A DNA stretch of 64,000 nt from an uncultured Actinomycetota bacterium (GTDB lineage: Bacteria; Actinomycetota; Actinomycetes; Mycobacteriales; CADCTP01), in NCBI GenBank assembly GCA_963803135.1, contig CAWDLH010000008.1, positions 957,732 to 1,021,731 on the forward strand. The letters are read 5' to 3'. Both the position numbers and the translations under genes were made by a program. This document shows, piece after piece, positions 1,799 to 10,873 of this stretch. The first letter of the stretch is position 1. The number at the start of each line of letters is the position of its first letter. The notes under the pieces are model-generated. The model ran no database searches, was not told the origin of the DNA, and worked only from the letters and a program-made list of their open reading frames with translations.

Positions 1799-2392
1799 AT
1801 GTCTTCCGAACGACGCCACCTCACCTCGCCGACCGAGCTGCGCGCGCTGAGCCACCCGACCCGGCTCACCCTGCTCACGCTGCTCGACGAGGAGGGACCG
1901 CTGACCGCCACCGAGGCCGGTGAGCGGATCGGCGAGTCCCCCGCGAACGCCTCGTTCCACCTGCGGACGCTGGCCAGGTACGGCTACGTCGAGGAGGCGC
2001 CCGGCGGTCGCGGCCGGCAACGGCCGTGGCAGGTCGTGCGGCGGGCCAACGACATCCCGGGCGACGAGCTGACGGCGGAGGCGAAGCTGGCCGCCGACGC
2101 GCTGCTGGAGCTGATCCGGGAGCGCGACAACGACCGGCTGCGGGCGTACGCCCGGACCCGCGGCGACTACCCCGAGCAGTGGCGCGCGGCGGCGACCGAG
2201 ATGCGGATGTCGCTGCACCTCACCGCCGCCGAGCTGGCCGAGCTGGGCGGGCGGATCGAGGAACTGCTGCAGCCCTACGTCGAGGGCACCGCGGGTGACG
2301 ACCGCCGGCCCGGCACCGCGCCGGTCGCCTTCGGGCTGTTCGCCGTGCCGACCAGGCTGCCCGCCGACCAGGACGAGGGAGACGTGCGATGA
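1799..2392 (+). CDS. ArsR-family winged-helix transcriptional regulator
   Basis: LRALSHPTRLTLLTLLDEEGPLTATEAGERIGESPANASFHLRTLARYGYVEE is a typical ArsR HTH. I prefer the ATG at 1799 over the track's TTG at 1763, which lies in the promoter-like island. There is a 4-nt overlap with the downstream MFS gene. Confidence 0.85.
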   Translation: MSSERRHLTSPTELRALSHPTRLTLLTLLDEEGPLTATEAGERIGESPANASFHLRTLARYGYVEEAPGGRGRQRPWQVVRRANDIPGDELTAEAKLAADALLELIRERDNDRLRAYARTRGDYPEQWRAAATEMRMSLHLTAAELAELGGRIEELLQPYVEGTAGDDRRPGTAPVAFGLFAVPTRLPADQDEGDVR

Positions 2393-3624
2393 CCGCCGTG
2401 CTGCGCAACCGCAACCTGAGGATCTTCCTCGGGATGGACGTGCTGTCGCTGACCGGCAGCAGTGCCCTCTGGCTCGCGCTGGGGATCTGGGTGAAGACGC
2501 TGACCGGCAGCACCGCGGCCGCCGGCATGGTGATCTTCGCGATCCTCGCCCCGCCGGTGCTGCTCGCGCCGGTCGCCGGGATGCTCGTCGACCGGGTCCG
2601 CCGCCGCCCGCTGCTGGTCGTGGTCAACCTGGCCAGCGCGGCCGCGGTCACGCTGCTGCTGCTGGTCCGCGACGGCGACCAGCTCTGGCTGATCTACGCG
2701 GTGGGTGCGCTGTACGGCGGGTCCTGGGCGCTGCTGCGCTCCGCCCAGTCGGCGCTGCTGCGCACGCTGGCGACCGACCCCGACCAGCTGCTGGCCGCGA
2801 ACGGCGCGCTGCAGACGGCCGCCGCGCTGTCCCGGCTGCTCAGCCCGGTCGCCGGCGCCGGGCTCTACGCGGTGGTCGGCCCGCACTCGGTCGTGCTGCT
2901 CGACGCGGCCACGTTCGTGGTCGCGGCCGGCGGGCTGCTGCTGATGCGGGTCACCGAGCCGGCCCCGGCGCCGGCCGACGGGCACTGGCGGGCCGAGGTG
3001 GCGGCCGGCCTGACCCACCTGCGCCGCACGGTGGTGCTCCGCCAGATCGTCGCCGCGGTCGCGCTGGCGATGCTGGTGATCGGCTTCATCGAGGTGATCA
3101 TGTTCGCGGTCGTCGACCAGGGACTGCACCGCTCCCCCGCGTTCCTCGGCGTGCTCGACCTCGGCTTCGGCGCGGGGTCGGTCGCCGGCGGGCTGCTCGC
3201 CGCCGCCGTGGTCCGCCGACTCGGCGCGGGCCACGCGGTCACCGCCGGGCTGGCCACGATCGCCGTCGGGGACCTGCTGCTCATGGTGCCGGTCGGCGTG
3301 GTCGCGGTGCTCGGGCTGGTGCTGATCGGGCTGGGCGTGCCCCCGGTGGTCGCCGGCATGTCGACCACGCTGCAGCTGCTCACCCCGATGCACCTGCAGG
3401 GCCGGACGTTCTCGGCCGTCGACGTCGTGGTCAGCACGCCGCAGAGCCTGTCGATCGCGCTCGGCGCGGCGCTGGCCGCGGTCGTCGACTTCCGGATCCT
3501 GGTCGCGGCGATGACGGTCGGGATCCTGCTCGCCGCGGCCTGGCTCGGCACCCGGCCCGAGCAGCGCCGCCGGCCCGCCCCGCTCCCCGACCCGGCCGGT
3601 CCGGTTCCCGTCGCGGCCGCCTGA
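2389..3624 (+). CDS. MFS transporter (EntS-like exporter type)
   Basis: 411 aa, about 12 hydrophobic helices, with an MFS loop motif (VAGMLVDRVRRRP). ATGA overlap with the ArsR gene suggests a regulator/efflux pair. Confidence 0.85.
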   Translation: MTAVLRNRNLRIFLGMDVLSLTGSSALWLALGIWVKTLTGSTAAAGMVIFAILAPPVLLAPVAGMLVDRVRRRPLLVVVNLASAAAVTLLLLVRDGDQLWLIYAVGALYGGSWALLRSAQSALLRTLATDPDQLLAANGALQTAAALSRLLSPVAGAGLYAVVGPHSVVLLDAATFVVAAGGLLLMRVTEPAPAPADGHWRAEVAAGLTHLRRTVVLRQIVAAVALAMLVIGFIEVIMFAVVDQGLHRSPAFLGVLDLGFGAGSVAGGLLAAAVVRRLGAGHAVTAGLATIAVGDLLLMVPVGVVAVLGLVLIGLGVPPVVAGMSTTLQLLTPMHLQGRTFSAVDVVVSTPQSLSIALGAALAAVVDFRILVAAMTVGILLAAAWLGTRPEQRRRPAPLPDPAGPVPVAAA

Positions 3625-3638
3625 CCGTACGCCGGCGG

Positions 3639-4604
3639 TCAGCCGACGGGCGTACGGGCCGGCTGCACCGGAGCCGGCACCAGGGCCGGCACCGGCTCGA
3701 CCTGACCGACCGGGGCCCGCACGTCGGCGCTCGCGAGGAACTGCCGCATCGTGCGTTCCACGCCGTAGCGGCGCCGGAGCAGCAGGAACACGATGAACGC
3801 GGGGATGCCGAAGAAGGTCTGGGCCGGCACCACGAAGTTGTTGTTCCCGCGGGTCACCGCGTCGAGCACCAGCGGTGCCAGCCCGGGGCCGAGTGACCCG
3901 AACACGACCACCACCGCCAGCGCGGCCCGCCACGCCGCCGGCCCGTACGCCTTGAGCGCGGCGATCGTGTAGAGCGCGTACACCAGCAGGTCGCCGATGC
4001 CGATGTTGGCGTTGTAGATGCCGAGCCGCATCCCGATCGACGGGTCGAGCGGGTAGCCGATGAAGGCGTCGGCGAGCAGCGGCGTCAACGGGATGAACAC
4101 GCTGAACGTGAGGTCGTAGCCGGCCAGGAACAGGGCGAACCACGCGACGTGCCGCAGCTGCATGCCGCCCTGCACGTACAGGTTGGCGACCGCGGACGCG
4201 CCCAGCAGCACGATCACGCTGGTCTCCGCCCAGTAGAACTGCCAGCCTCCGACGGTGCCGAGGGAGGTCCGGGCGACCCAGATGTTCACCCCGATGAGCA
4301 GGCCGATCGCGGTCCACAGCAGGGCCGGCCGCAGCACCGGCCGGTAGCCGATCGACAGCGAGGCGACGAACGTGAGCACCAGGAACGTGGTCAGCGCCCA
4401 GTGCGGCAGCACCAGGTAGAGCACCGGCAGCGTGACGATGAAGACGAACAGCACCACCACGTCGCGACCGTTGAACGTGCCGACCGCCGGCCGCTCCAGC
4501 CGGATCCGGCGCAGGTAGCCGGTGGCGAGCAGGCAGGTCGCGACGGCGCCGATCAGCACGACCAGGACCTGGACGAGCGTCTGCGGGACCAGCAGGTCGA
4601 CCAT
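3639..4604 (-). CDS. Polytopic (~9-TM) membrane protein with YD and GxGD motifs; candidate presenilin/SPP-like intramembrane aspartyl protease
   Basis: 321 aa. GAGGAG SD in the 12-nt gap after the ligase stop. About 9 hydrophobic segments. AGYD(164)LTF lies in predicted TM6, NIGIGD(205)LLVY in TM7 and VVPAQTF in TM9. That a CDS exists is near certain; the family call rests on motifs only. Confidence 0.55.
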   Translation of the reverse strand: MVDLLVPQTLVQVLVVLIGAVATCLLATGYLRRIRLERPAVGTFNGRDVVVLFVFIVTLPVLYLVLPHWALTTFLVLTFVASLSIGYRPVLRPALLWTAIGLLIGVNIWVARTSLGTVGGWQFYWAETSVIVLLGASAVANLYVQGGMQLRHVAWFALFLAGYDLTFSVFIPLTPLLADAFIGYPLDPSIGMRLGIYNANIGIGDLLVYALYTIAALKAYGPAAWRAALAVVVVFGSLGPGLAPLVLDAVTRGNNNFVVPAQTFFGIPAFIVFLLLRRRYGVERTMRQFLASADVRAPVGQVEPVPALVPAPVQPARTPVG

Positions 4605-4616
4605 CGGGATCTCCTC

Positions 4617-6029
4617 CTACGCCTTCGTCGTCGTGAAGCTGGTCTCGACCAGGTCGGCGCGCACGGTGCGCAGCTCCCGGCCGTCGGTGTCGACCGGGTG
4701 CAGCTCGACGTCCAGGCCGCGGTCGGCGAGGTGTTGCCGGGTCGCCGCCGCGCCGAACCCGTGCAGGGCACTCGCGGGCACGCTCAGGTGCAGCCGGCCG
4801 TCGACGACGGCGCCGCGGAACCGGGCCGGGTACGGCGCGGTCGGCAGCGCCTCCCAGGCCTCGACGAGCTCGCGCGGGGTGACGACACCGGCCGCCGTGC
4901 GGTACTGGCCGCCGGCCTTGCCGAGGATGGCCGAGGTGGCCGGGATCGCGGCGAGCTCGCAGTCCGGCGGCTCGACCAGCGTGCGGACCAGGTCCCGGGT
5001 GTCGTAGCGCAGCACCGGCATGCAGTCCCGGTACGGGAAGTAGGGCGTGACGACGAGCGTGCCCAGCTCGCCCGGCCCGGCCGGCCCCGAGCCGTCGAGC
5101 GCGAGCACCTCGACCAGGCCCATGTTGAGGTCCGGGTGCAGGTGACCGAGCGAGCAGCTGCGCCCGCTGACCGGCAGCACCTCGGTCATCGCGAACGTGT
5201 CGTTGACCAGCTCCAGCCCGAAGGTGGCGCGGGCCGCGACCGACAGTGCCGGCGACAGCACCTCGCCGCCCACGTCGGCGCGGCGCAGCGCGAAGTCCGC
5301 CGGGCCGAGACCCCGGCGGCGGGCGGCGTTGACCAGCTCGGCCAGGTACGACGGGTAGGTGGCGAGCATCGTCGGGCCCCGGTCCAGCAAGGAGTCGAGG
5401 CTCTCGTCGGGCGGCAGCACGCCGAGCACGCGGCTGCGCGCGCCGACCAGCCGGCACAGGGTCACGTCCTGCTGCACGGCGGCGGTCGCCCGCGAGCTGA
5501 TGTTGACCTGCATGCAGTCGTCCGGGCCGATCTCGCCGCGCAGCAACCCCGACAACGCCGCCATCGCCGGCCACAACTCGACCTCGTACGCGGACAACCA
5601 CACCTCGGCCGGCCGCCCGGTCGTCCCGGTCGTGCGGGTGGACATCACCGGCTCGACGCCGCGGCAGCGGAACTCCTCCGGGCGTGCCTGGAGCTCCGCC
5701 TTCGTGGTCACCGGCACCGCCGGCAGCGCCGGCGCGGTGAGCCGGGCGGGGTCCACGCCGGCCGAGGCGAAACGCTCGGCGTAGAACGGGGACAGCTCGG
5801 CCAGCCGCCGCGCGGTCCGGCGCACCGACCGGTCGGTGAACTCCTGCCTGGCCTCCGGGTCGGCGAAGGGGCCGTCGGTCAGCTGCTGGACGTCCGCGCC
5901 CGGCGTGCCGAACTCGGCCAGGGTGGCGCGGGCGTCGACGACGAGCTTCTGCACGGTCGCCGGGTCTATCCGCCGGCCCCACACCATCGCCATCGCCATC
6001 CGGAACTGCCGAAGCCCGGTCTCGAACAT
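4617..6029 (-). CDS. PaaK / coenzyme F390 synthetase-family adenylate-forming ligase
   Basis: STRTTGTTGRPAEVW (P-loop-like TSGTTG motif), FAMTE (YGxTE-like) and LRYDTRDLV (cf. PaaK RYRTRDL). I place the start at ATG 6029 (MFETGLRQF...) with GGAGA 4 nt upstream. The track's 6128 start adds an Arg/Gly-rich head. Confidence 0.8.
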   Translation of the reverse strand: MFETGLRQFRMAMAMVWGRRIDPATVQKLVVDARATLAEFGTPGADVQQLTDGPFADPEARQEFTDRSVRRTARRLAELSPFYAERFASAGVDPARLTAPALPAVPVTTKAELQARPEEFRCRGVEPVMSTRTTGTTGRPAEVWLSAYEVELWPAMAALSGLLRGEIGPDDCMQVNISSRATAAVQQDVTLCRLVGARSRVLGVLPPDESLDSLLDRGPTMLATYPSYLAELVNAARRRGLGPADFALRRADVGGEVLSPALSVAARATFGLELVNDTFAMTEVLPVSGRSCSLGHLHPDLNMGLVEVLALDGSGPAGPGELGTLVVTPYFPYRDCMPVLRYDTRDLVRTLVEPPDCELAAIPATSAILGKAGGQYRTAAGVVTPRELVEAWEALPTAPYPARFRGAVVDGRLHLSVPASALHGFGAAATRQHLADRGLDVELHPVDTDGRELRTVRADLVETSFTTTKA

Positions 6030-6087
6030 GCCGTCTCCAGGGAATCCGTCTCGGTCGTTGAGTGGGCCGGCGCCCGTCGCGCTGCCC

Positions 6088-6116
6088 CCGGCCGGCCGCA
6101 GGCCGCGGCTGGCCGG
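6088..6116 (-). other. GC-rich stem-loop between micro-ORF and ligase gene
   Basis: Minus strand CCGGCC-A-GCCGC [GGCCT] GCGGC-C-GGCCGG gives 11 bp with one A.C mismatch. No U-tract follows. Confidence 0.4.
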
Positions 6117-6144
6117 CGCGGCGGGCACCGGCCCCCCGTGCGGC

Positions 6145-6237
6145 TCAGGAGCCGCCGGCGCAGGCCGCGAACAGCACGGCGGTGAGCGAACCCATGGCGT
6201 ACCGGGCGTGCTTGACGGTGCTCTTGAAAGCGGACAT
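6145..6237 (-). CDS. 30-codon micro-ORF: signal-peptide-like / single-TM peptide MSAFKSTVKHARYAMGSLTAVLFAACAGGS
   Basis: GAGAGGAGG lies 5 nt upstream of the ATG. 27 of 29 codons after the ATG end in G/C. Basic N-region, hydrophobic core, and LFAAC resembling a lipobox. Located directly upstream of the ligase gene on the same strand. Confidence 0.55.
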   Translation of the reverse strand: MSAFKSTVKHARYAMGSLTAVLFAACAGGS

Positions 6238-6317
6238 GACGACCTCCTCTCGACACTGTCGGCGGGACGGAGCCGGCGGCGACGGTCGCGACTGCGCCCC
6301 CGCCGGGGTCTGCGCTG

Positions 6318-6740
6318 CTAGGAGTCGGTGACCGTCACGGTTACGGTCATCTCCGGGTGCAGCGAGCACGTCACGTGGTACGTGCCGGGGGTGTTCCACG
6401 TCGCTGTCGTGTACGTCTGCCCCGACTCGCTCAGGAAGGCGCCGCGGGCGCCGAGCGACGGGGCTCCGGGCTCGGACGTGATCCGGCCGTCCTCGCCCGG
6501 CCCGATCACGTGCAGCCATCGGGAGTCGTTGACGAACGTGAGGGTGTCGCCCGTGCCGATGGTCACGGCGGGGTAGTCGCCGGATTTCACCTGGGCCGTG
6601 GCGGTGTCCGGCACGGCGAAGGCCTCGTGTTCCATCCCGACCGTCCCGGCCGGCGCGCGAGCCGGCCCGGCGGTCACCGTCGGCACCACGGCGCCGGCCA
6701 CCAGAAGCGGCACGGCGAGGAGAAACCGGGGCACGGACAC
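6318..6740 (-). CDS. Secreted cupredoxin (type-1 copper, amicyanin/plastocyanin-like)
   Basis: Signal peptide VSVPRFLLAVPLLVAGAVVPTVTAGPARA. Copper ligands FVNDSRWLH...YHVTCSLHPEM (H...C-x2-H-x2-M). I place the start at GTG 6740, preceded by GGGAGGG; the track's 6791 start is less likely. Confidence 0.8.
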   Translation of the reverse strand: MSVPRFLLAVPLLVAGAVVPTVTAGPARAPAGTVGMEHEAFAVPDTATAQVKSGDYPAVTIGTGDTLTFVNDSRWLHVIGPGEDGRITSEPGAPSLGARGAFLSESGQTYTTATWNTPGTYHVTCSLHPEMTVTVTVTDS

Positions 6741-6869
6741 GGAACCCTCCCAAGGCGCAGGTTGTCCACCAACACCGGCCGAAGGGGGCAATCTCCGTGC
6801 GGTAGCTGAGAGTGTTGGCTCGGGCGCTGGGGGCTGTCAATGTCGCGCGAGCAAAGGTGCCCTAAGAGA

Positions 6870-6961
6870 CTGTGGACAGCGCATCCGTCCACAGCCGTTC
6901 GGCGCAGTTCACCCCAAGCTGAGACAAGGGCGCGCCAAGGACCCTTTGTCCGGTCCGGACA
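6870..6961. promoter_or_regulatory. Two perfect palindromes in the lower-GC region upstream of the cupredoxin gene
   Basis: CTGTGGAC-N9-GTCCACAG (6870-6894) and TGTCCGG-T-CCGGACA (6947-6961). Function unknown: operator, or terminator of the SPFH operon. Confidence 0.25.
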
Positions 6962-7044
6962 GCCGGTACGGCAGGCCGCATCCGGACCGTTCTCGGTCAC
7001 GTCCCGGCGCACCGGGCGCCGGCGGCGCCGGCTCGGGCCGGCTC

Positions 7045-7268
7045 GGACCGGCCCGTTCCCGGGCCGGCCCGTTCCCGGGCCGGCCCGTTCTCGGCCGGCC
7101 CGGCGCGGTCGCCGGCTCCGGCCGGCTCGGGCCGGGTCGGCTCGGCGCGGTCGCTGGCTGGGGCCGGGTCGGCTCGGCGCGGTCGCCGGCTCCGGGCCGG
7201 CTCGGGCCGGGTCGGCTCGGCGCGGTCGCTGGCTGGGGCCGGGTCGGCTCGGCGCGGTCGCTGGCGGG
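7045..7268. repeat. Composite GC-rich tandem repeats abutting the SPFH stop codon
   Basis: A 16-nt unit GG(A/G)CCGGCCCGTTC(C/T)C occurs x3 (7045-7092). A ~75-nt unit (GGCGCGGTCGCCGGCTCCGGCCGGCTCGGGCCGGGTCGGCTC + GGCGCGGTCGCTGGCTGGGGCCGGGTCGGCTC) occurs x2 plus a partial copy (7102-7268). Confidence 0.8.
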
Positions 7269-8606
7269 CTAGCGGGGTGGGCCCTGGCGGCCGGTGGGGG
7301 GCTGGCCGGCTCCGGGCTGGGACCGTCCGGGGTATGCCGAGCCGGACGAGGGTTCCCCGTACGGTCCGGAGGACGGGCCGGTCGCCGGGGTGGTGTACTG
7401 GGCCGGGGTCGGCGGGAGCGCCCGCGGCCCGTCGTCCTCGTCCGGCAGATCGTCCTGCCCGTCCGGCGGGTCGTACGACAACCTGGCGTGCGCGGCGGCG
7501 GTCTCGCTGTCGCGGTCGGACGCCCGGATCTCCGCCTCCGGCTGCAGCCGCGCCGGCGGCAGCTTCGAGTCGAACCAGTCGCTCGTGTCGAGCGTCTCCT
7601 TCGGCGCGGTGGGCCGCCCGCCGGGCGACTTCGCCGCCTCGGTCAGCCAGGACGGCGACGCCGACCCGTCCGACGACGCTCCGGTCAGCCCGGCCAGCCC
7701 CTCCAGCGCCTTGGAGAACTCGCTCGGCACGATCCAGAGCTTGTTCGCGTCGCCCTGCGCGATCTGCGGCAAGGTCTGCAGGTATTGGTAGGCGAGCAGC
7801 TTCGGGTCGGGGTCGGACGCGTGGATCGACGCGAACACCGTCTCGATCGCCTTGGCCTGGCCCTGCGCGGCCAGGTAGCGGGCGGCCCGCTCACCCTCGG
7901 CCCGCAGGATCCGGGACTGCCGCTCGGCCTCGGCGGCGAGGATCGCGGACTGCTTGGCACCCTCGGCGGCGAGGATCTGCGCCGCCTTCTGCCCCTCGGC
8001 GGTCTTGATCGAGGACTCCCGGGCACCCTCCGACTGCAGGATGATCGCCCGCTTGTCCCGGTCGGCCCGCATCTGCTTCTCCATCGCGTCCTGGATGGAC
8101 GGCGGCGGGTCGATCGCCTTGAGCTCGACCCGGGCGACCCGGATCCCCCACTTGCCGGTGGCGTCGTCCAGCTCGCCGCGCAGCTTGGTGTTGATCTCGT
8201 CCCGGGAGGTCAGCGTCTGCTCCAGGTTCATCGCGCCGACCACGTTGCGCAGCGTGGTGACGGTGAGCTGCTCGACGGCCTGGATGTAGTTGGCGATCTC
8301 GTACGTCGCCGCCCGCGGGTCGGTGACCTGGAAGTAGATGACCGTGTCGATGTTCACGGTCAGGTTGTCCGCGGTGATCACCGGCTGCGGCGGGAACGAG
8401 ACGACCTGCTCGCGCAGGTCGATCATCTGCCGGACCCGGTCCACGAACGGGATCAGCACGTGCGGACCGGGGTCGAGGGTGCGCGAATAACTGCCCAGCC
8501 GCTCGACGACGCCCGCGCGGGCCTGCGGGACGATCCGGATGCTGCGCAGCAGTATCACGACGATGAACGCGATGACGACGAGCAGGGCGATGAGACCGGC
8601 TTCCAT
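7269..8606 (-). CDS. SPFH/band-7 (stomatin-like, QmcA-type) membrane protein with long disordered Pro/Gly-rich C-terminal tail
   Basis: N-terminal TM, then IVPQARAGVVERLGSY...LIPFVDRV...IDTVIYFQV...TLRNVVG...EINTKLR...WGIRVARVELKAIDPP. Paired with NfeD upstream. Confidence 0.9.
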   Translation of the reverse strand: MEAGLIALLVVIAFIVVILLRSIRIVPQARAGVVERLGSYSRTLDPGPHVLIPFVDRVRQMIDLREQVVSFPPQPVITADNLTVNIDTVIYFQVTDPRAATYEIANYIQAVEQLTVTTLRNVVGAMNLEQTLTSRDEINTKLRGELDDATGKWGIRVARVELKAIDPPPSIQDAMEKQMRADRDKRAIILQSEGARESSIKTAEGQKAAQILAAEGAKQSAILAAEAERQSRILRAEGERAARYLAAQGQAKAIETVFASIHASDPDPKLLAYQYLQTLPQIAQGDANKLWIVPSEFSKALEGLAGLTGASSDGSASPSWLTEAAKSPGGRPTAPKETLDTSDWFDSKLPPARLQPEAEIRASDRDSETAAAHARLSYDPPDGQDDLPDEDDGPRALPPTPAQYTTPATGPSSGPYGEPSSGSAYPGRSQPGAGQPPTGRQGPPR

Positions 8607-8653
8607 GACTGCTCCAGTGCGCTATGTGTGCCGGGTCGGTGCGGCCCGGTCTC

Positions 8654-9091
8654 TCATTCGTGTGACCACACGACGGCGGTGGCGCCGCGGATCTCCATCA
8701 CCTGCACGGTCGCGCCGACCGGCAGCACCTGCAGCGGGTCGTACGACTGGGCGGACCACTCCTCGCCGGCCAGCTTGATCCGGCCGCCGTGCTGGTCCAC
8801 GGTCCGCACCACCACCGCGTTGCGGCCCTTGAGCCCCTCGATCCCGGTGCGCTGCGCCGAGGTCAGCGGCACCTGCATCCGGCGCCGGGCCAGCGGCCGG
8901 ACCACGACGACCAGACCGAGCGAGACCACCGCGAAGACGCCTACCTGCACCGCGGCCCCGGCACCCAGCGCGGCGGCGCCGGCCGTGGCCAGCGCCGCGA
9001 TCGCCAGCATGATCAGCACGAGGTCGAGCGACAGCGCCTCGGCGATCGCCAGCACACCGGCGGCGAGGAGCCAGATCAACCACGCAGGCAC
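8654..9091 (-). CDS. NfeD-family membrane protein
   Basis: TM helices followed by a C-terminal OB-like domain (GLKGRNAVVVRTVDQHGGRIKLAGEEWSAQS...GATVQVMEIRGATAVV). I place the start at GTG 9091 (VPAWLIWLL...); the track's upstream extension is Arg/Gly junk. Confidence 0.85.
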   Translation of the reverse strand: MPAWLIWLLAAGVLAIAEALSLDLVLIMLAIAALATAGAAALGAGAAVQVGVFAVVSLGLVVVVRPLARRRMQVPLTSAQRTGIEGLKGRNAVVVRTVDQHGGRIKLAGEEWSAQSYDPLQVLPVGATVQVMEIRGATAVVWSHE

Positions 9092-9114
9092 ATCGTCATT
9101 GTTCCACCGATCGG

Positions 9115-9936
9115 CTAACCGGGGCCGCCCGCGGTCACGAAGTCGATGAGCTGTTCCACGGCTCTGAGGAGCGGAACCTCGAGATCGGCGTACGAGTCGA
9201 CGGCGGCGAGCACCCGCCGCCAGCCGTCCCGCGGACCGCCCCAGCCGAGCCGCCGGCAGACCCCGGCCTTCCAGTCCTCGTCCCGGGGCACCGCCGGCCA
9301 GGCGCGGATGCCGAGCGCGGCCGGTTTCACCGCCTGCCAGACGTCGACGTACGGGTGCCCGAGGACCAGCACGTCCGGGTCGGTGACCGCGGCGACGATC
9401 CGGCTCTCCTTGGAACCGGGGACGAGGTGGTCCACGAGCACGCCGAGCCGGTGCTGCCGGTCCGGCCGGAACGTCCGCACCGCGCCGGCGAGGTCGTCGA
9501 TCCCGTCCAGCGGCTCCACCACGACCGCCTCGATCCGCAGGTCGTCGCCCCAGACCCGCTCGACCAGCGCGGCGTCGTGCACGCCCTCGACCCAGAGCCG
9601 GCTGCCCCGGGCGACCCTGGCCGGCGCGGGCCCGACCGCGACCGACCCGGAGGCGGTCCGGCCCGGCCGGCGCGGAGCCGGCGCCGCCACCGGCCGGGTC
9701 AGCGTCACCGGCCGGCCCTCCAGCAGGAACCCGGCCGGCCCGAGCGGGAACACCCGCCGCCGCCCGTGCCGGTCCTCCAGCGTCACCGCGTCCTTCGCGC
9801 ACTCCACGACCGCGCCGCAGAAGCCGGTGGCGGCCTCCTCGACGACAAGGTCCGGCTCGGCCGGCACGCTCGGCAGGACCTTCGGCCGCCGCCAGTCACC
9901 GGCCAGCACATCGGTGCCGTAGTCGTCGCTGCGCAC
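9115..9936 (-). CDS. Conserved actinobacterial protein (DUF3097-like, cf. Rv1486c position)
   Basis: 273-aa ORF with non-repetitive composition. Its position between hemH and nfeD matches the mycobacterial arrangement. Family assignment is from memory of synteny. Confidence 0.7.
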   Translation of the reverse strand: MRSDDYGTDVLAGDWRRPKVLPSVPAEPDLVVEEAATGFCGAVVECAKDAVTLEDRHGRRRVFPLGPAGFLLEGRPVTLTRPVAAPAPRRPGRTASGSVAVGPAPARVARGSRLWVEGVHDAALVERVWGDDLRIEAVVVEPLDGIDDLAGAVRTFRPDRQHRLGVLVDHLVPGSKESRIVAAVTDPDVLVLGHPYVDVWQAVKPAALGIRAWPAVPRDEDWKAGVCRRLGWGGPRDGWRRVLAAVDSYADLEVPLLRAVEQLIDFVTAGGPG

Positions 9937-10120
9937 GCGAGCGACCGTACGGCGCGGGCCGGGCCGGGCGGCGATGACGCGCCGGCCCGGCTTGCTCCGG
10001 CAGCCGCGCTACCACCCGCTGTAGTAATTGCCACCTCGAGTGGTACGACCCACGCCGGGCATGGTGCCGCCGGCCGTGACCCGGAGGCCGGTGTCGGCGG
10101 GAGCACGTAGGGTGGCCGGC

Positions 10121-10873
10121 GTGAGGGTGCGCTCCGGGGTGCTCGCCGCCTGGACGTCGGCCTGGTTGGCCGGCGAGGCGGCGTACGACGACGTGGTCGG
10201 CCGGGTCACCGGCGCCGACGAGCCGCACCGGGTGACCGGATTGCCCGGGGCGGACGGCGAGACGCCGCTGGGCTGGGCGCTGCCGGTGCTGCGCGAGCGG
10301 TCGCCGGAGGGCGTGCGGGCGGTCCTGCCGGTGGCCGGCGACCCGCGCGGGCTGCCGGGTCCCGGACCGTTCACGACCGCGGCGCTGGCGGCCGGCGAGG
10401 CGGTCGTCGGCCGCGGCCTCGGGCTCGTCCCACGGGTCACCGAGCACGGCCCGGCCGCGGACCGCACCTGCTCGGTGCTGTGGACCGCGTACGAGGTGGC
10501 CGAGCCGGCGCCGGACCCGCTCACCGTGCCCGAGGCCGAGCACGAGCTGACCGCCGCCACCCGGGAGGCCGCGTCCGCGCTGGCCGCGCTCGACGTGGCC
10601 AGCTGGCGGCCGGAGGTGGCCGACGAGCTGGCCAGGATGCGCCGCGGGGTCACCCCGGAGCTGCCGCCCGGACACGACGGCCGGGCGGTCCGGCTGCTCG
10701 CCAGCGCCGACCGGCTGGCTGCCGTGCTCGACCTGGCCCGGGCCGACGCGCCCGGCGGCGCCATCACCGTGGCCGAGGCCCGCGCCCGCGACGACGTGCT
10801 CCGTCCACTTGGGACAGCCGTCCGCCGCGCCCGCCAGGCCGCCTACAACGCGGTTCCGTCCCGCCGCCGTTGA
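10121..10873 (+). CDS. Hypothetical protein (conserved-looking, no recognisable motif)
   Basis: The only coherent frame in this interval. I place the start tentatively at GTG 10121 (VRVRSGVLAAW...); the track starts it at 10028. Confidence 0.55.
   Translation: MRVRSGVLAAWTSAWLAGEAAYDDVVGRVTGADEPHRVTGLPGADGETPLGWALPVLRERSPEGVRAVLPVAGDPRGLPGPGPFTTAALAAGEAVVGRGLGLVPRVTEHGPAADRTCSVLWTAYEVAEPAPDPLTVPEAEHELTAATREAASALAALDVASWRPEVADELARMRRGVTPELPPGHDGRAVRLLASADRLAAVLDLARADAPGGAITVAEARARDDVLRPLGTAVRRARQAAYNAVPSRRR

What the first reader, a model, noticed from the sequence alone, without database searches (positions are those of the whole stretch)
3639..6740. Accessory operon: secreted cupredoxin / 30-codon membrane micro-ORF / PaaK-type adenylating ligase / 9-TM YD-GxGD membrane protein
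All four genes are on the minus strand with short gaps. The gap 6318->6237 is 80 nt. The gap 6145->6029 is 115 nt and holds an 11-bp GC stem-loop at 6088-6116. The gap 4617->4604 is 12 nt and contains GAGGAG. The block lies between an MFS gene and the SPFH/NfeD pair, at the edge of a stretch otherwise collinear with M. tuberculosis Rv1475c-Rv1488, so it looks accessory. A highly translatable tiny signal-peptide-like ORF is followed by a stem-loop, then a carboxylate-activating enzyme and a putative intramembrane protease. That layout resembles a peptide-maturation locus. My inference is that a small type-II TM peptide is cleaved in the membrane and its fragment is adenylated or ligated. I know of no described system with this composition.
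Basis: partly seen in the sequence, partly recalled or inferred. Interest (0 to 1): 0.8.

Follow-up and report, generated by a model that had tools for sequence, protein, structure and literature searches.

The report
Bacterial presenilin-like protease with micro-peptide
This block of genes encodes a bacterial relative of presenilin, the protein-cutting membrane enzyme linked to Alzheimer's disease. It sits beside a tiny 30-amino-acid peptide gene and an ATP-using enzyme, and the three are always inherited together across many Actinobacteria, so they most likely form a pathway that cuts and modifies a small signalling peptide — a possible simple bacterial model of how presenilin-type enzymes work.

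Summary
Four genes on the minus strand sit at the stated coordinates. Cupredoxin: 6740-6318. 30-codon micro-ORF: 6237-6146. PaaK-like adenylating ligase: 6029-4617. 9-helix membrane protein: 4604-3639. The spacers, the GAGGAG and the strong GC hairpin are as described. The membrane protein is a presenilin/signal-peptide-peptidase-type intramembrane aspartyl protease, shown by structure rather than sequence. Its AlphaFold model matches human SPPL2a (Z 23), presenilin-1 (Z ~21) and archaeal PSH (Z ~18). Its YD and GxGD motifs do not vary across a family of about 466 bacterial representatives that Pfam does not detect. The micro-peptide, ligase and protease are always inherited together: in 13 loci from Micromonosporaceae, Jatrophihabitans, Pseudonocardiales, Embleya (on a linear megaplasmid) and distant family members, with different flanking genes each time. 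The micro-peptide is a conserved signal-peptide-like sequence under purifying selection. The cupredoxin is present only in the closer subfamily. Most likely, the micro-peptide is a membrane-inserted precursor cut by the presenilin-like protease, and the ANL ligase adenylates or conjugates a product. Cleavage and modification are inferred, not shown. As far as I could find, no such system is described.

The parts
6318..6740 (-). Secreted cupredoxin (amicyanin/plastocyanin-like type-1 Cu site H...C-x2-H-x2-M); accessory, found only in the closer subfamily
   Evidence: NCBIfam amicyanin TIGR02657 E=1.8e-4 and Pfam Copper-bind E=0.0019, both below cutoff; Cu ligands conserved in 8 copies; Sec-type signal peptide
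6146..6237 (-). 30-codon micro-ORF: signal-peptide-like peptide (positive n-region KHxRY, ~12-residue hydrophobic core GSLTAVLF, variable 4-7-residue tail, lipobox Cys in 6/12 copies); candidate protease substrate
   Evidence: Conserved in 12 cassette copies plus distant members; dN/dS 0.09-0.62, third-position changes dominate; conserved GGAGG RBS
6242..6247 (-). Micro-ORF ribosome-binding site GAGGAG
   Evidence: Sequence; GGAGG motif conserved upstream in all homologues
6030..6145 (-). Spacer with strong GC-rich hairpin just after the micro-ORF stop (possible terminator or 3' mRNA-stabilising element separating peptide from enzyme expression)
   Evidence: MFE -74.8 kcal/mol, z -2.79; a strong hairpin sits in this spacer in every homologue; no canonical T-tailed terminator
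4617..6029 (-). PaaK/aryl-CoA-ligase-like ANL adenylating enzyme (470 aa), cytoplasmic
   Evidence: Pfam AMP-binding E=1.5e-7; NCBIfam FlxY/DVU1553/PaaK/BagE-FevW below cutoffs; closest solved PaaK 2y27 E=5.5e-15; invariant P-loop T134-G138 and Lys K371
4605..4616 (-). 12-nt spacer with GAGGAG RBS coupling ligase and protease
3639..4604 (-). Presenilin/SPP-fold intramembrane aspartyl protease (321 aa, 8-9 TM), candidate catalytic Asp residues Y163-D164 (codons ~4118-4113) and G202-x-G204-D205 (codons ~4001-3990), PAL-like P260-A-Q262
   Evidence: AF2 model pLDDT 86; Foldseek PSEN1/SPPL2a/PSH; VIA Z 23/21/18; motifs invariant in homologues; no Pfam/NCBIfam/PDB-sequence hit

Best explanation
A bacterial peptide-processing pathway built around a presenilin/SPP-like intramembrane aspartyl protease. 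The micro-ORF peptide inserts into the cytoplasmic membrane like a signal peptide or signal anchor: positive N-terminus inside, short hydrophobic core, tail outside. With its tiny ectodomain it is an ideal SPP/gamma-secretase-type substrate. The co-encoded protease cuts it within the hydrophobic core, using the YD (TM6) and GxGD (TM7) aspartates. This releases a cytoplasmic N-terminal fragment and/or a hydrophobic fragment. The co-encoded ANL (PaaK-like) enzyme uses ATP to adenylate a carboxylate and join it to another molecule. Most likely it modifies the released peptide: adenylation of its new C-terminus, or conjugation of an aryl/acyl group to it. The product is likely a signal or bioactive peptide. 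Shown: the protease fold and motifs, conservation and co-inheritance of the three genes, and the peptide's signal-peptide architecture under purifying selection. Inferred: cleavage, which fragment is made, the ligase's substrate, and the product's role. The cupredoxin is an accessory secreted copper protein in one subfamily; its role is unknown.
For: Protease: presenilin/SPP fold (Foldseek top 20 are PSEN1, SPPL2a and archaeal PSH; VIA Z 23 SPPL2a, ~21 PSEN1, ~18 PSH, next unrelated Z 5.2). YD and GxGD invariant in 38 close homologues and in all 16 sampled distant representatives, always ~40 aa apart. A family of 466 representatives at 50% clustering. Co-inheritance: all four genes in the same order in 6 MAG loci, in G267, and in 4 further loci with unrelated flanks. 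Micro-peptide + ligase + protease also in distant family members lacking the cupredoxin and on an Embleya linear megaplasmid. A paralogous ligase + protease + micro-peptide cluster sits next to a SARP regulator. At E<=1e-40 the ligase occurs in the same 2 of 401 sampled Actinomycetota genomes as the protease. Micro-peptide: conserved core KHxRYAMGSLTAVLF with invariant R12, Y13, A20, V21, F23; dN/dS ~0.1-0.6; conserved RBS. Its Gly/Ser within the hydrophobic core fit intramembrane-cleavage substrates (established knowledge of SPP/gamma-secretase substrates). Ligase: active-looking ANL motifs; closest solved structures are aryl-CoA ligases. A strong hairpin separates peptide and enzyme genes in all copies, like the precursor-then-terminator layout of RiPP clusters (inference).
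Against: No experimental or expression evidence. No RNA holders. Complex prediction gave no verdict. The ligase's substrate is unknown; its relatives are aryl-CoA ligases, so it may activate a small aryl acid, not a peptide. The peptide's hydrophobic core (~12 residues) is short for a transmembrane helix. Its C-terminal tail and lipobox Cys vary, so the exact processing site is unclear. The protease could have other substrates, such as the cupredoxin's signal peptide. No described bacterial precedent.
Confidence: 0.45

Rival explanations
1. The micro-peptide is a small structural or regulatory subunit of the protease, like PEN-2 for gamma-secretase or the small single-helix partners of bacterial membrane enzymes (AcrZ, KdpF, CydX), not its substrate. 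The protease would then cleave other membrane segments, such as signal peptides of secreted proteins like the cupredoxin, and the ligase would make an acyl-CoA used elsewhere.
For: The peptide is conserved and always co-encoded with the protease. Presenilin needs small cofactors (established knowledge). The cupredoxin carries a Sec signal peptide.
Against: The peptide has a signal-peptide architecture with a tiny C-terminal tail, which fits a substrate better than a stable subunit. Its hydrophobic core is short for a stable TM subunit. Complex prediction gave no support either way.
Confidence: 0.2
2. The micro-ORF is a cis-regulatory leader (ribosome-arrest or attenuation uORF). Its translation and the downstream hairpin control expression of the ligase and protease, and the peptide product itself has no function.
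For: A short ORF followed by a strong conserved hairpin upstream of the enzyme genes. Arrest peptides are conserved at the protein level too.
Against: In the G267 paralogous cluster the micro-ORF lies downstream of the protease, not upstream of the ligase. The conserved residues are the hydrophobic core and n-region, not the C-terminal residues near the peptidyl-transferase centre that arrest peptides conserve. A 30-aa peptide is fully inside the exit tunnel at termination.
Confidence: 0.1
3. The micro-peptide is a small hydrophobic membrane-active peptide (type-I-toxin-like), and the presenilin-like protease is an immunity or quality-control enzyme that clears it from the membrane. The ligase's role is separate.
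For: Short hydrophobic peptide co-encoded with a membrane protease.
Against: Unlike type I toxins (cationic hydrophobic peptides with antisense antitoxins), it has a signal-peptide layout. No antisense RNA was looked for. The ligase's conserved presence is unexplained.
Confidence: 0.08
4. The cassette makes a non-peptide small molecule: the ligase activates an aryl acid, and the protease-fold protein works with the acyl-adenylate or as a membrane channel or transporter, as presenilin has been proposed to act as a leak channel. The micro-peptide is a partner.
For: The ligase's closest solved relatives are aryl-CoA ligases.
Against: The catalytic YD and GxGD are invariant across the whole family, which argues for retained protease chemistry.
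Confidence: 0.07

Closest known systems
Presenilin/gamma-secretase, signal peptide peptidase (SPP/SPPL) and archaeal PSH/MCMJR1 (MEROPS A22 GxGD intramembrane aspartyl proteases)
   Same: Same fold: VIA Z 18-23 over ~250 residues. YD in TM6, GxGD at the start of TM7 after a beta-hairpin, and a PAL-like P near the last helix. SPP-like preference for short-ectodomain, signal-peptide-like substrates fits the co-encoded micro-peptide (inference).
   Different: Bacterial (Actinomycetota). Pfam and PDB-sequence profiles do not detect it. No large TM6-TM7 loop. No known cofactors. Encoded in a dedicated operon with a micro-peptide and an ANL enzyme.
Enterococcal signal-peptide-derived sex pheromones (cCF10, cAD1) processed by the S2P protease Eep
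   Same: A lipoprotein-type signal peptide is the source of a short hydrophobic peptide released by intramembrane proteolysis. The micro-peptide core GSLTAVLF resembles those hydrophobic pheromones (established knowledge, by analogy).
   Different: The protease here is an aspartyl A22-fold enzyme, not an S2P metalloprotease. The precursor is a stand-alone micro-ORF, not the signal of a functional lipoprotein. No receptor or transporter genes in the cassette. There is an ANL enzyme.
Microcin C-type RiPP pathway (MccA heptapeptide C-terminally adenylated by MccB)
   Same: A tiny ribosomal peptide gene beside an ATP-dependent adenylating enzyme, with the precursor gene separated from the enzyme genes (established knowledge; analogy only).
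   Different: MccB is an E1/ThiF enzyme; this is an ANL (PaaK-like) enzyme. No intramembrane protease in microcin C. This precursor is a signal-peptide-like membrane peptide.
PaaK/aryl-CoA ligases (ANL superfamily, e.g. PaaK 2y27, AjiA1 6wuq)
   Same: Closest solved sequences. Conserved ANL P-loop and an invariant Lys.
   Different: Only distantly related (Pfam E 1.5e-7; NCBIfam scores far below every equivalog cutoff). Found in a membrane-peptide operon rather than in an aromatic-degradation cluster. Substrate unknown.
Type IV prepilin peptidases (A24, GxGD)
   Same: GxGD-type aspartyl catalysis in a polytopic bacterial membrane protein.
   Different: Prepilin peptidases have catalytic Asps in cytoplasmic loops and a different fold. 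The structural searches return presenilin/SPP/PSH, not A24.

Membership tests
Presenilin/SPP/PSH (A22 GxGD intramembrane aspartyl proteases) | Polytopic (~9 TM) presenilin fold | tested here: met
   AF2 model pLDDT 86, pTM 0.85; VIA Z 23 SPPL2a, 21 PSEN1, 18 PSH
Presenilin/SPP/PSH (A22 GxGD intramembrane aspartyl proteases) | YD motif (catalytic Asp 1) in TM6 | tested here: met
   Y163-D164 in helix 150-169, invariant in 38 homologues and 16 distant representatives
Presenilin/SPP/PSH (A22 GxGD intramembrane aspartyl proteases) | GxGD motif (catalytic Asp 2) at TM7 | tested here: met
   G202-I-G204-D205 at the start of helix 203-220, invariant
Presenilin/SPP/PSH (A22 GxGD intramembrane aspartyl proteases) | PAL motif near the C-terminal TM | tested here: inconclusive
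   Invariant P260-A-Q262 at the start of the last long helix: PAQ, not PAL
Presenilin/SPP/PSH (A22 GxGD intramembrane aspartyl proteases) | Detectable by Presenilin/SPP sequence profiles | tested here: not met
   No Pfam hit; profile A1 finds nothing in PDB sequences
Presenilin/SPP/PSH (A22 GxGD intramembrane aspartyl proteases) | Intramembrane proteolytic activity | not testable with these tools
   Needs purified enzyme and substrate
PaaK-like ANL adenylating enzymes | ANL P-loop and catalytic motifs | tested here: met
   Invariant T134-G138 P-loop, RYDTRD A7-like stretch, invariant K371; AMP-binding Pfam
PaaK-like ANL adenylating enzymes | Phenylacetate-CoA ligase equivalog membership | tested here: not met
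   TIGR02155 42 bits against a cutoff of 646
RiPP (leader-core precursor + modifying enzymes) | Precursor with recognisable leader and core and a known RiPP modification enzyme | tested here: not met
   The precursor is signal-peptide-like, and no YcaO/LanB/LanC/rSAM enzyme is in the cassette
Signal-peptide-derived pheromone systems (E. faecalis type) | S2P (Eep-type) metalloprotease processing | tested here: not met
   The protease is A22-fold aspartyl, not S2P
Signal-peptide-derived pheromone systems (E. faecalis type) | Lipoprotein-signal-peptide origin | tested here: inconclusive
   Lipobox Cys in 6 of 12 micro-peptides only
Type I toxin-antitoxin small hydrophobic peptides | Antisense RNA antitoxin overlapping the peptide gene | not tested
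   No antisense transcript analysis was possible

The most novel reading that the evidence does not exclude
A bacterial gamma-secretase/SPP-like pathway. A presenilin-fold aspartyl protease cuts a dedicated, ribosomally made signal-peptide-like micro-peptide inside the membrane. The co-encoded ANL enzyme then adenylates or acylates the released fragment, making a modified peptide signal or bioactive compound (e.g., a peptidyl-adenylate or N-aroyl peptide). This would be the first bacterial presenilin-type system with a defined natural substrate, and a new class of ribosomal peptide maturation in which intramembrane proteolysis is a biosynthetic step.
Probability: 0.3. Interest if true: 0.9.

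Novelty: new variant of a known kind. Interest (0 to 1): 0.72.

Why it matters
If true, this is a genetically tractable bacterial model of presenilin/SPP-type catalysis with a natural 30-residue substrate. Open questions such as how these proteases recognise substrates, whether they cut processively, and how helix-destabilising residues guide cleavage could then be tested in a simple system without gamma-secretase cofactors. It would also add a new route to ribosomal peptide natural products in Actinomycetota, the main antibiotic-producing phylum. The protease family (~466 cluster representatives) is not detected by Pfam and, as far as the literature searched here shows, has not been described in bacteria.

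Tried and rejected
Pfam, NCBIfam and PADLOC found no family for the membrane protein or the micro-peptide. Profile-HMM search of PDB sequences with the protease alignment found nothing; the relationship is visible only by structure. Complex prediction of protease + micro-peptide (alignments A1, A2) gave no verdict (score 0.02); per the tool this is not evidence either way. The look-up of sequencing runs found only soil-metagenome relatives at ~0.2 word share, and possible RNA-seq runs only at 0.05 share. Laying those reads gave scattered foreign fragments: no RNA holder usable for expression, which is no evidence either way. ESM Atlas search with the micro-peptide found no family. The promoter/terminator scan found no canonical sigma-70 promoter or T-tailed terminator, which is expected in high-GC Actinobacteria. 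Literature searches found presenilin/SPP/PSH papers but nothing on a bacterial presenilin-like family or this cassette. Read: PMC2947513 on archaeal PSH/MCMJR1. Considered and set aside: the cupredoxin signal peptide as the origin of the micro-ORF (no similarity); a second micro-peptide copy elsewhere in the own genome (only one).
Full report
The finding. It suggested a peptide-maturation locus.

Gene coordinates. All four genes are present at these coordinates.
- Cupredoxin: GTG 6740 to stop 6318; RBS GGAGGG.
- Micro-ORF: ATG 6237 to TGA 6148-6146, MSAFKSTVKHARYAMGSLTAVLFAACAGGS; RBS GAGGAG.
- Ligase: ATG 6029 to TAG 4619-4617, 470 aa; RBS GGAGACGG.
- Membrane protein: ATG 4604 to 3639, 321 aa. 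The 12-nt spacer 4616-4605 holds GAGGAG.
The ~116-nt spacer between micro-ORF and ligase folds into a long GC-rich hairpin. Flanks: an MFS transporter on the + strand (2389-3624) and SPFH/Band_7 plus NfeD genes on the - strand (7269-8606, 8654-9802). GC content is uniform (~72-76%), so the block is not a compositional island. I did not test the claimed collinearity with M. tuberculosis.

Gene identities.
- Cupredoxin: weak amicyanin/plastocyanin matches below curated cutoffs. It has a Sec signal peptide and a type-1 copper site (His in xHxxGPG, then C-x2-H-x2-M, amicyanin-like). The site is conserved in all 8 subfamily copies.
- Ligase: an ANL adenylating enzyme, distant from PaaK/aryl-CoA ligases. 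Pfam AMP-binding E=1.5e-7. NCBIfam FlxY, DVU1553, PaaK and BagE/FevW score far below equivalog cutoffs. Closest solved sequences are PaaK 2y27 (E 5.5e-15), AjiA1 6wuq and PaaK-like 6siw. In 41 homologues the ANL P-loop (T134-G138), an RYDTRD stretch and a Lys (K371) are invariant, consistent with an active enzyme.
- Membrane protein: no Pfam or NCBIfam family. 767 close homologues, all unnamed, from Actinomycetota: Mycobacteriales, Micromonosporaceae, Pseudonocardiales, Jatrophihabitans, Kutzneria, Labedaea, Actinocrinis.

The protease structure. An AlphaFold2 model built on a 38-sequence alignment (A1) is confident: pLDDT 86, pTM 0.85. Foldseek ranks human gamma-secretase PSEN1, SPPL2a and the archaeal presenilin homologue PSH as its 20 best PDB matches. 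VIA-align gives Z 23.0 for SPPL2a, 20-21.5 for PSEN1 structures and 17.8 for PSH (4hyg, 4y6k), over ~250 residues. The next unrelated chain scores Z 5.2. The residues match the presenilin signature:
- Y163-D164 lie in helix 150-169 (TM6).
- G202-I-G204-D205 start helix 203-220 (TM7), just after a beta-hairpin (189-202). That hairpin is where presenilin forms its hybrid beta-sheet with substrates.
- An invariant P260-A-Q262 sits at the start of the last long helix, a PAL-like position.
YD and GxGD are invariant in the 38 close homologues. A profile search of 1.84 billion proteins gives 466 cluster representatives. All 16 sampled, down to E ~1e-27, keep YD and GxGD about 39-41 residues apart. 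A profile search of PDB sequences finds nothing, so the relationship is structural, not detectable by sequence. The archaeal PSH paper (PMC2947513) describes the same signature (YD, GxGD on adjacent TMDs, PAL or PPL motif). It says presenilin-like proteins outside eukaryotes were known only as a suggestion for archaea. My literature searches found no described bacterial presenilin-like family or this cassette.

Conservation and co-inheritance. The search for related loci on genome contigs gave 6 loci. All carry cupredoxin, micro-ORF, ligase and protease in the same order. Four further loci were fetched from homologues of the protease (Labedaea rhizosphaerae, Kutzneria, and two metagenome contigs). 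Each has the same four-gene order but different flanking genes: FAD monooxygenase, TetR/aldo-keto reductase, molybdopterin enzyme/two-component system, PhyH/GGDEF. So the block is an accessory cassette. In a sample of 401 Actinomycetota genomes, the protease (E<=1e-10) and the ligase (E<=1e-40) occur in exactly the same two genomes: the window's own and G267. G267 has the full cassette. It also has a paralogous cluster: ligase, protease and a micro-ORF (MNVLKTYVRYARYALSALSAVGFAACSSS) in a different order, next to a SARP/OmpR-type regulator. Distant family members lack the cupredoxin but keep the ligase directly upstream of the protease, and most also keep a micro-ORF with the same signature:
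- L019: MVRVVREYAKFALSSLASVMFSQTS.
- L020/L021: MVKSACKHVKYAVSAFCAVVFMVAS.
- L022, a short contig: a ligase fragment directly upstream of the protease.
An Embleya (Streptomycetaceae) linear megaplasmid carries an unannotated copy: micro-ORF MSAIVSTLKHTKYIMGSMAAVLFSNCPS, ligase (52%) and protease (48%).
The conserved core is therefore micro-peptide + ANL ligase + presenilin-like protease. The cupredoxin belongs only to one subfamily.

The micro-peptide. Across 12 cassette copies the alignment (A2) shows a conserved n-region (KHxRY, invariant R12 and Y13) and a hydrophobic core (AMGSLTAVLF, invariant A20, V21, F23). The 4-7-residue C-terminal tail varies, and a lipobox Cys is present in only 6 of 12 copies. 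Codon analysis of the first 26 codons gives pairwise dN/dS of 0.09-0.62, with third-position changes dominating (187 against 85 and 61). This is purifying selection on the amino-acid sequence, so the micro-ORF is most likely a real protein-coding gene. Its layout is that of a Sec signal peptide with almost no mature part: positive n-region, ~12-residue h-region containing Gly/Ser, short c-region. By established knowledge of SPP and gamma-secretase, such short-ectodomain membrane segments with helix-destabilising residues are typical intramembrane-protease substrates. A strong GC hairpin follows the micro-ORF in every copy. This suggests separate expression or stabilisation of the cupredoxin/peptide mRNA relative to the enzyme genes, as in precursor-then-terminator layouts of RiPP clusters (inference).

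Mechanism. The micro-peptide inserts in the membrane, N-terminus inside. The presenilin-like protease cuts it within the hydrophobic core. The ANL enzyme adenylates and conjugates a carboxylate, most likely on the released peptide (peptidyl-AMP or amide/thioester formation) or an aryl acid attached to it. The product would be a signal or bioactive peptide.
- Shown: the protease fold and motifs; the three-gene co-inheritance across distant lineages and a megaplasmid; the peptide's conserved signal-peptide architecture under selection.
- Inferred: cleavage, which fragment is made, and the ligase's substrate.
Rivals:
- The peptide is a PEN-2-like subunit or regulator of the protease (0.2).
- The micro-ORF is a cis-regulatory leader (0.1). 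This is weakened because the paralogous cluster places the micro-ORF downstream of the protease, and because the conserved residues are not at the C-terminus as in arrest peptides.
- Toxin/immunity pair (0.08).
- Non-peptide small-molecule pathway or non-protease role (0.07). This is weakened by the invariant catalytic motifs.
Complex prediction gave no verdict and is not counted either way. No expression data were obtainable.

Comparison with known systems. The protease works like presenilin, SPP and archaeal PSH (A22), and passes the fold, YD and GxGD tests. It fails sequence-profile membership and has no known cofactors, so I call it a divergent bacterial relative, not a recognised A22 member. 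The cassette's logic recalls two known systems:
- Signal-peptide-derived pheromones in enterococci, but those are processed by the S2P metalloprotease Eep.
- The microcin C peptide-adenylation pathway, but that uses an E1-like enzyme.
No described system combines a co-encoded signal-peptide-like micro-peptide, an ANL enzyme and a presenilin-fold protease.

Verdict. A real, conserved and apparently undescribed three- or four-gene system in Actinomycetota centred on a bacterial presenilin/SPP-fold protease. It is a new variant of the known kind of intramembrane peptide processing. Interest is 0.72 because it could give a tractable bacterial model of presenilin-type catalysis with a natural substrate.

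Noticed in passing
window 2275-5982 (-): A 1235-aa GC-rich ORF runs antisense across the whole cassette. It is almost certainly a spurious high-GC open frame, not a gene.
   Followed up: no
G267 contig C174 (loci L011/L014), ~4360-10207: A paralogous cluster: ligase (36%), presenilin-like protease (34%, with YD and GLGD) and a micro-ORF in a different order, next to a large SARP/AfsR-type regulator. This suggests regulation of the system by a SARP in some lineages.
   Followed up: partly
L020/L021 and L019 (distant family members): Distant cassettes lack the cupredoxin. One carries a Trans_reg_C (OmpR/SARP) regulator; another has DUF4190, Vgb-lyase-like and Imm7 neighbours.
   Followed up: partly
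Embleya sp. NBC_00896 plasmid NZ_CP108777.1, ~882-886 kb: An unannotated copy of micro-ORF, ligase and protease on a 3.1-Mb linear megaplasmid. This points to mobility of the cassette, and the PLSDB gene table misses these genes.
   Followed up: partly
window 6030-6145 (-) and equivalent spacers in all homologues: A very stable GC hairpin (z -2.79) with a recurring palindromic GTGCCGGCAG...CTGCCGGCAC-like motif right after the micro-ORF. It may be a conserved terminator or RNA-processing site.
   Followed up: partly
window 6318-6740 (-): The cupredoxin has an amicyanin-like C-x2-H-x2-M type-1 copper loop, unusual for a small secreted actinobacterial protein. Its partner in electron transfer is unknown.
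   Followed up: partly
window 7269-9802 (-): An SPFH/Band_7 protein and an NfeD-like protein sit as a pair next to the cassette. This is the usual stomatin-NfeD pairing, not part of the system.
   Followed up: no
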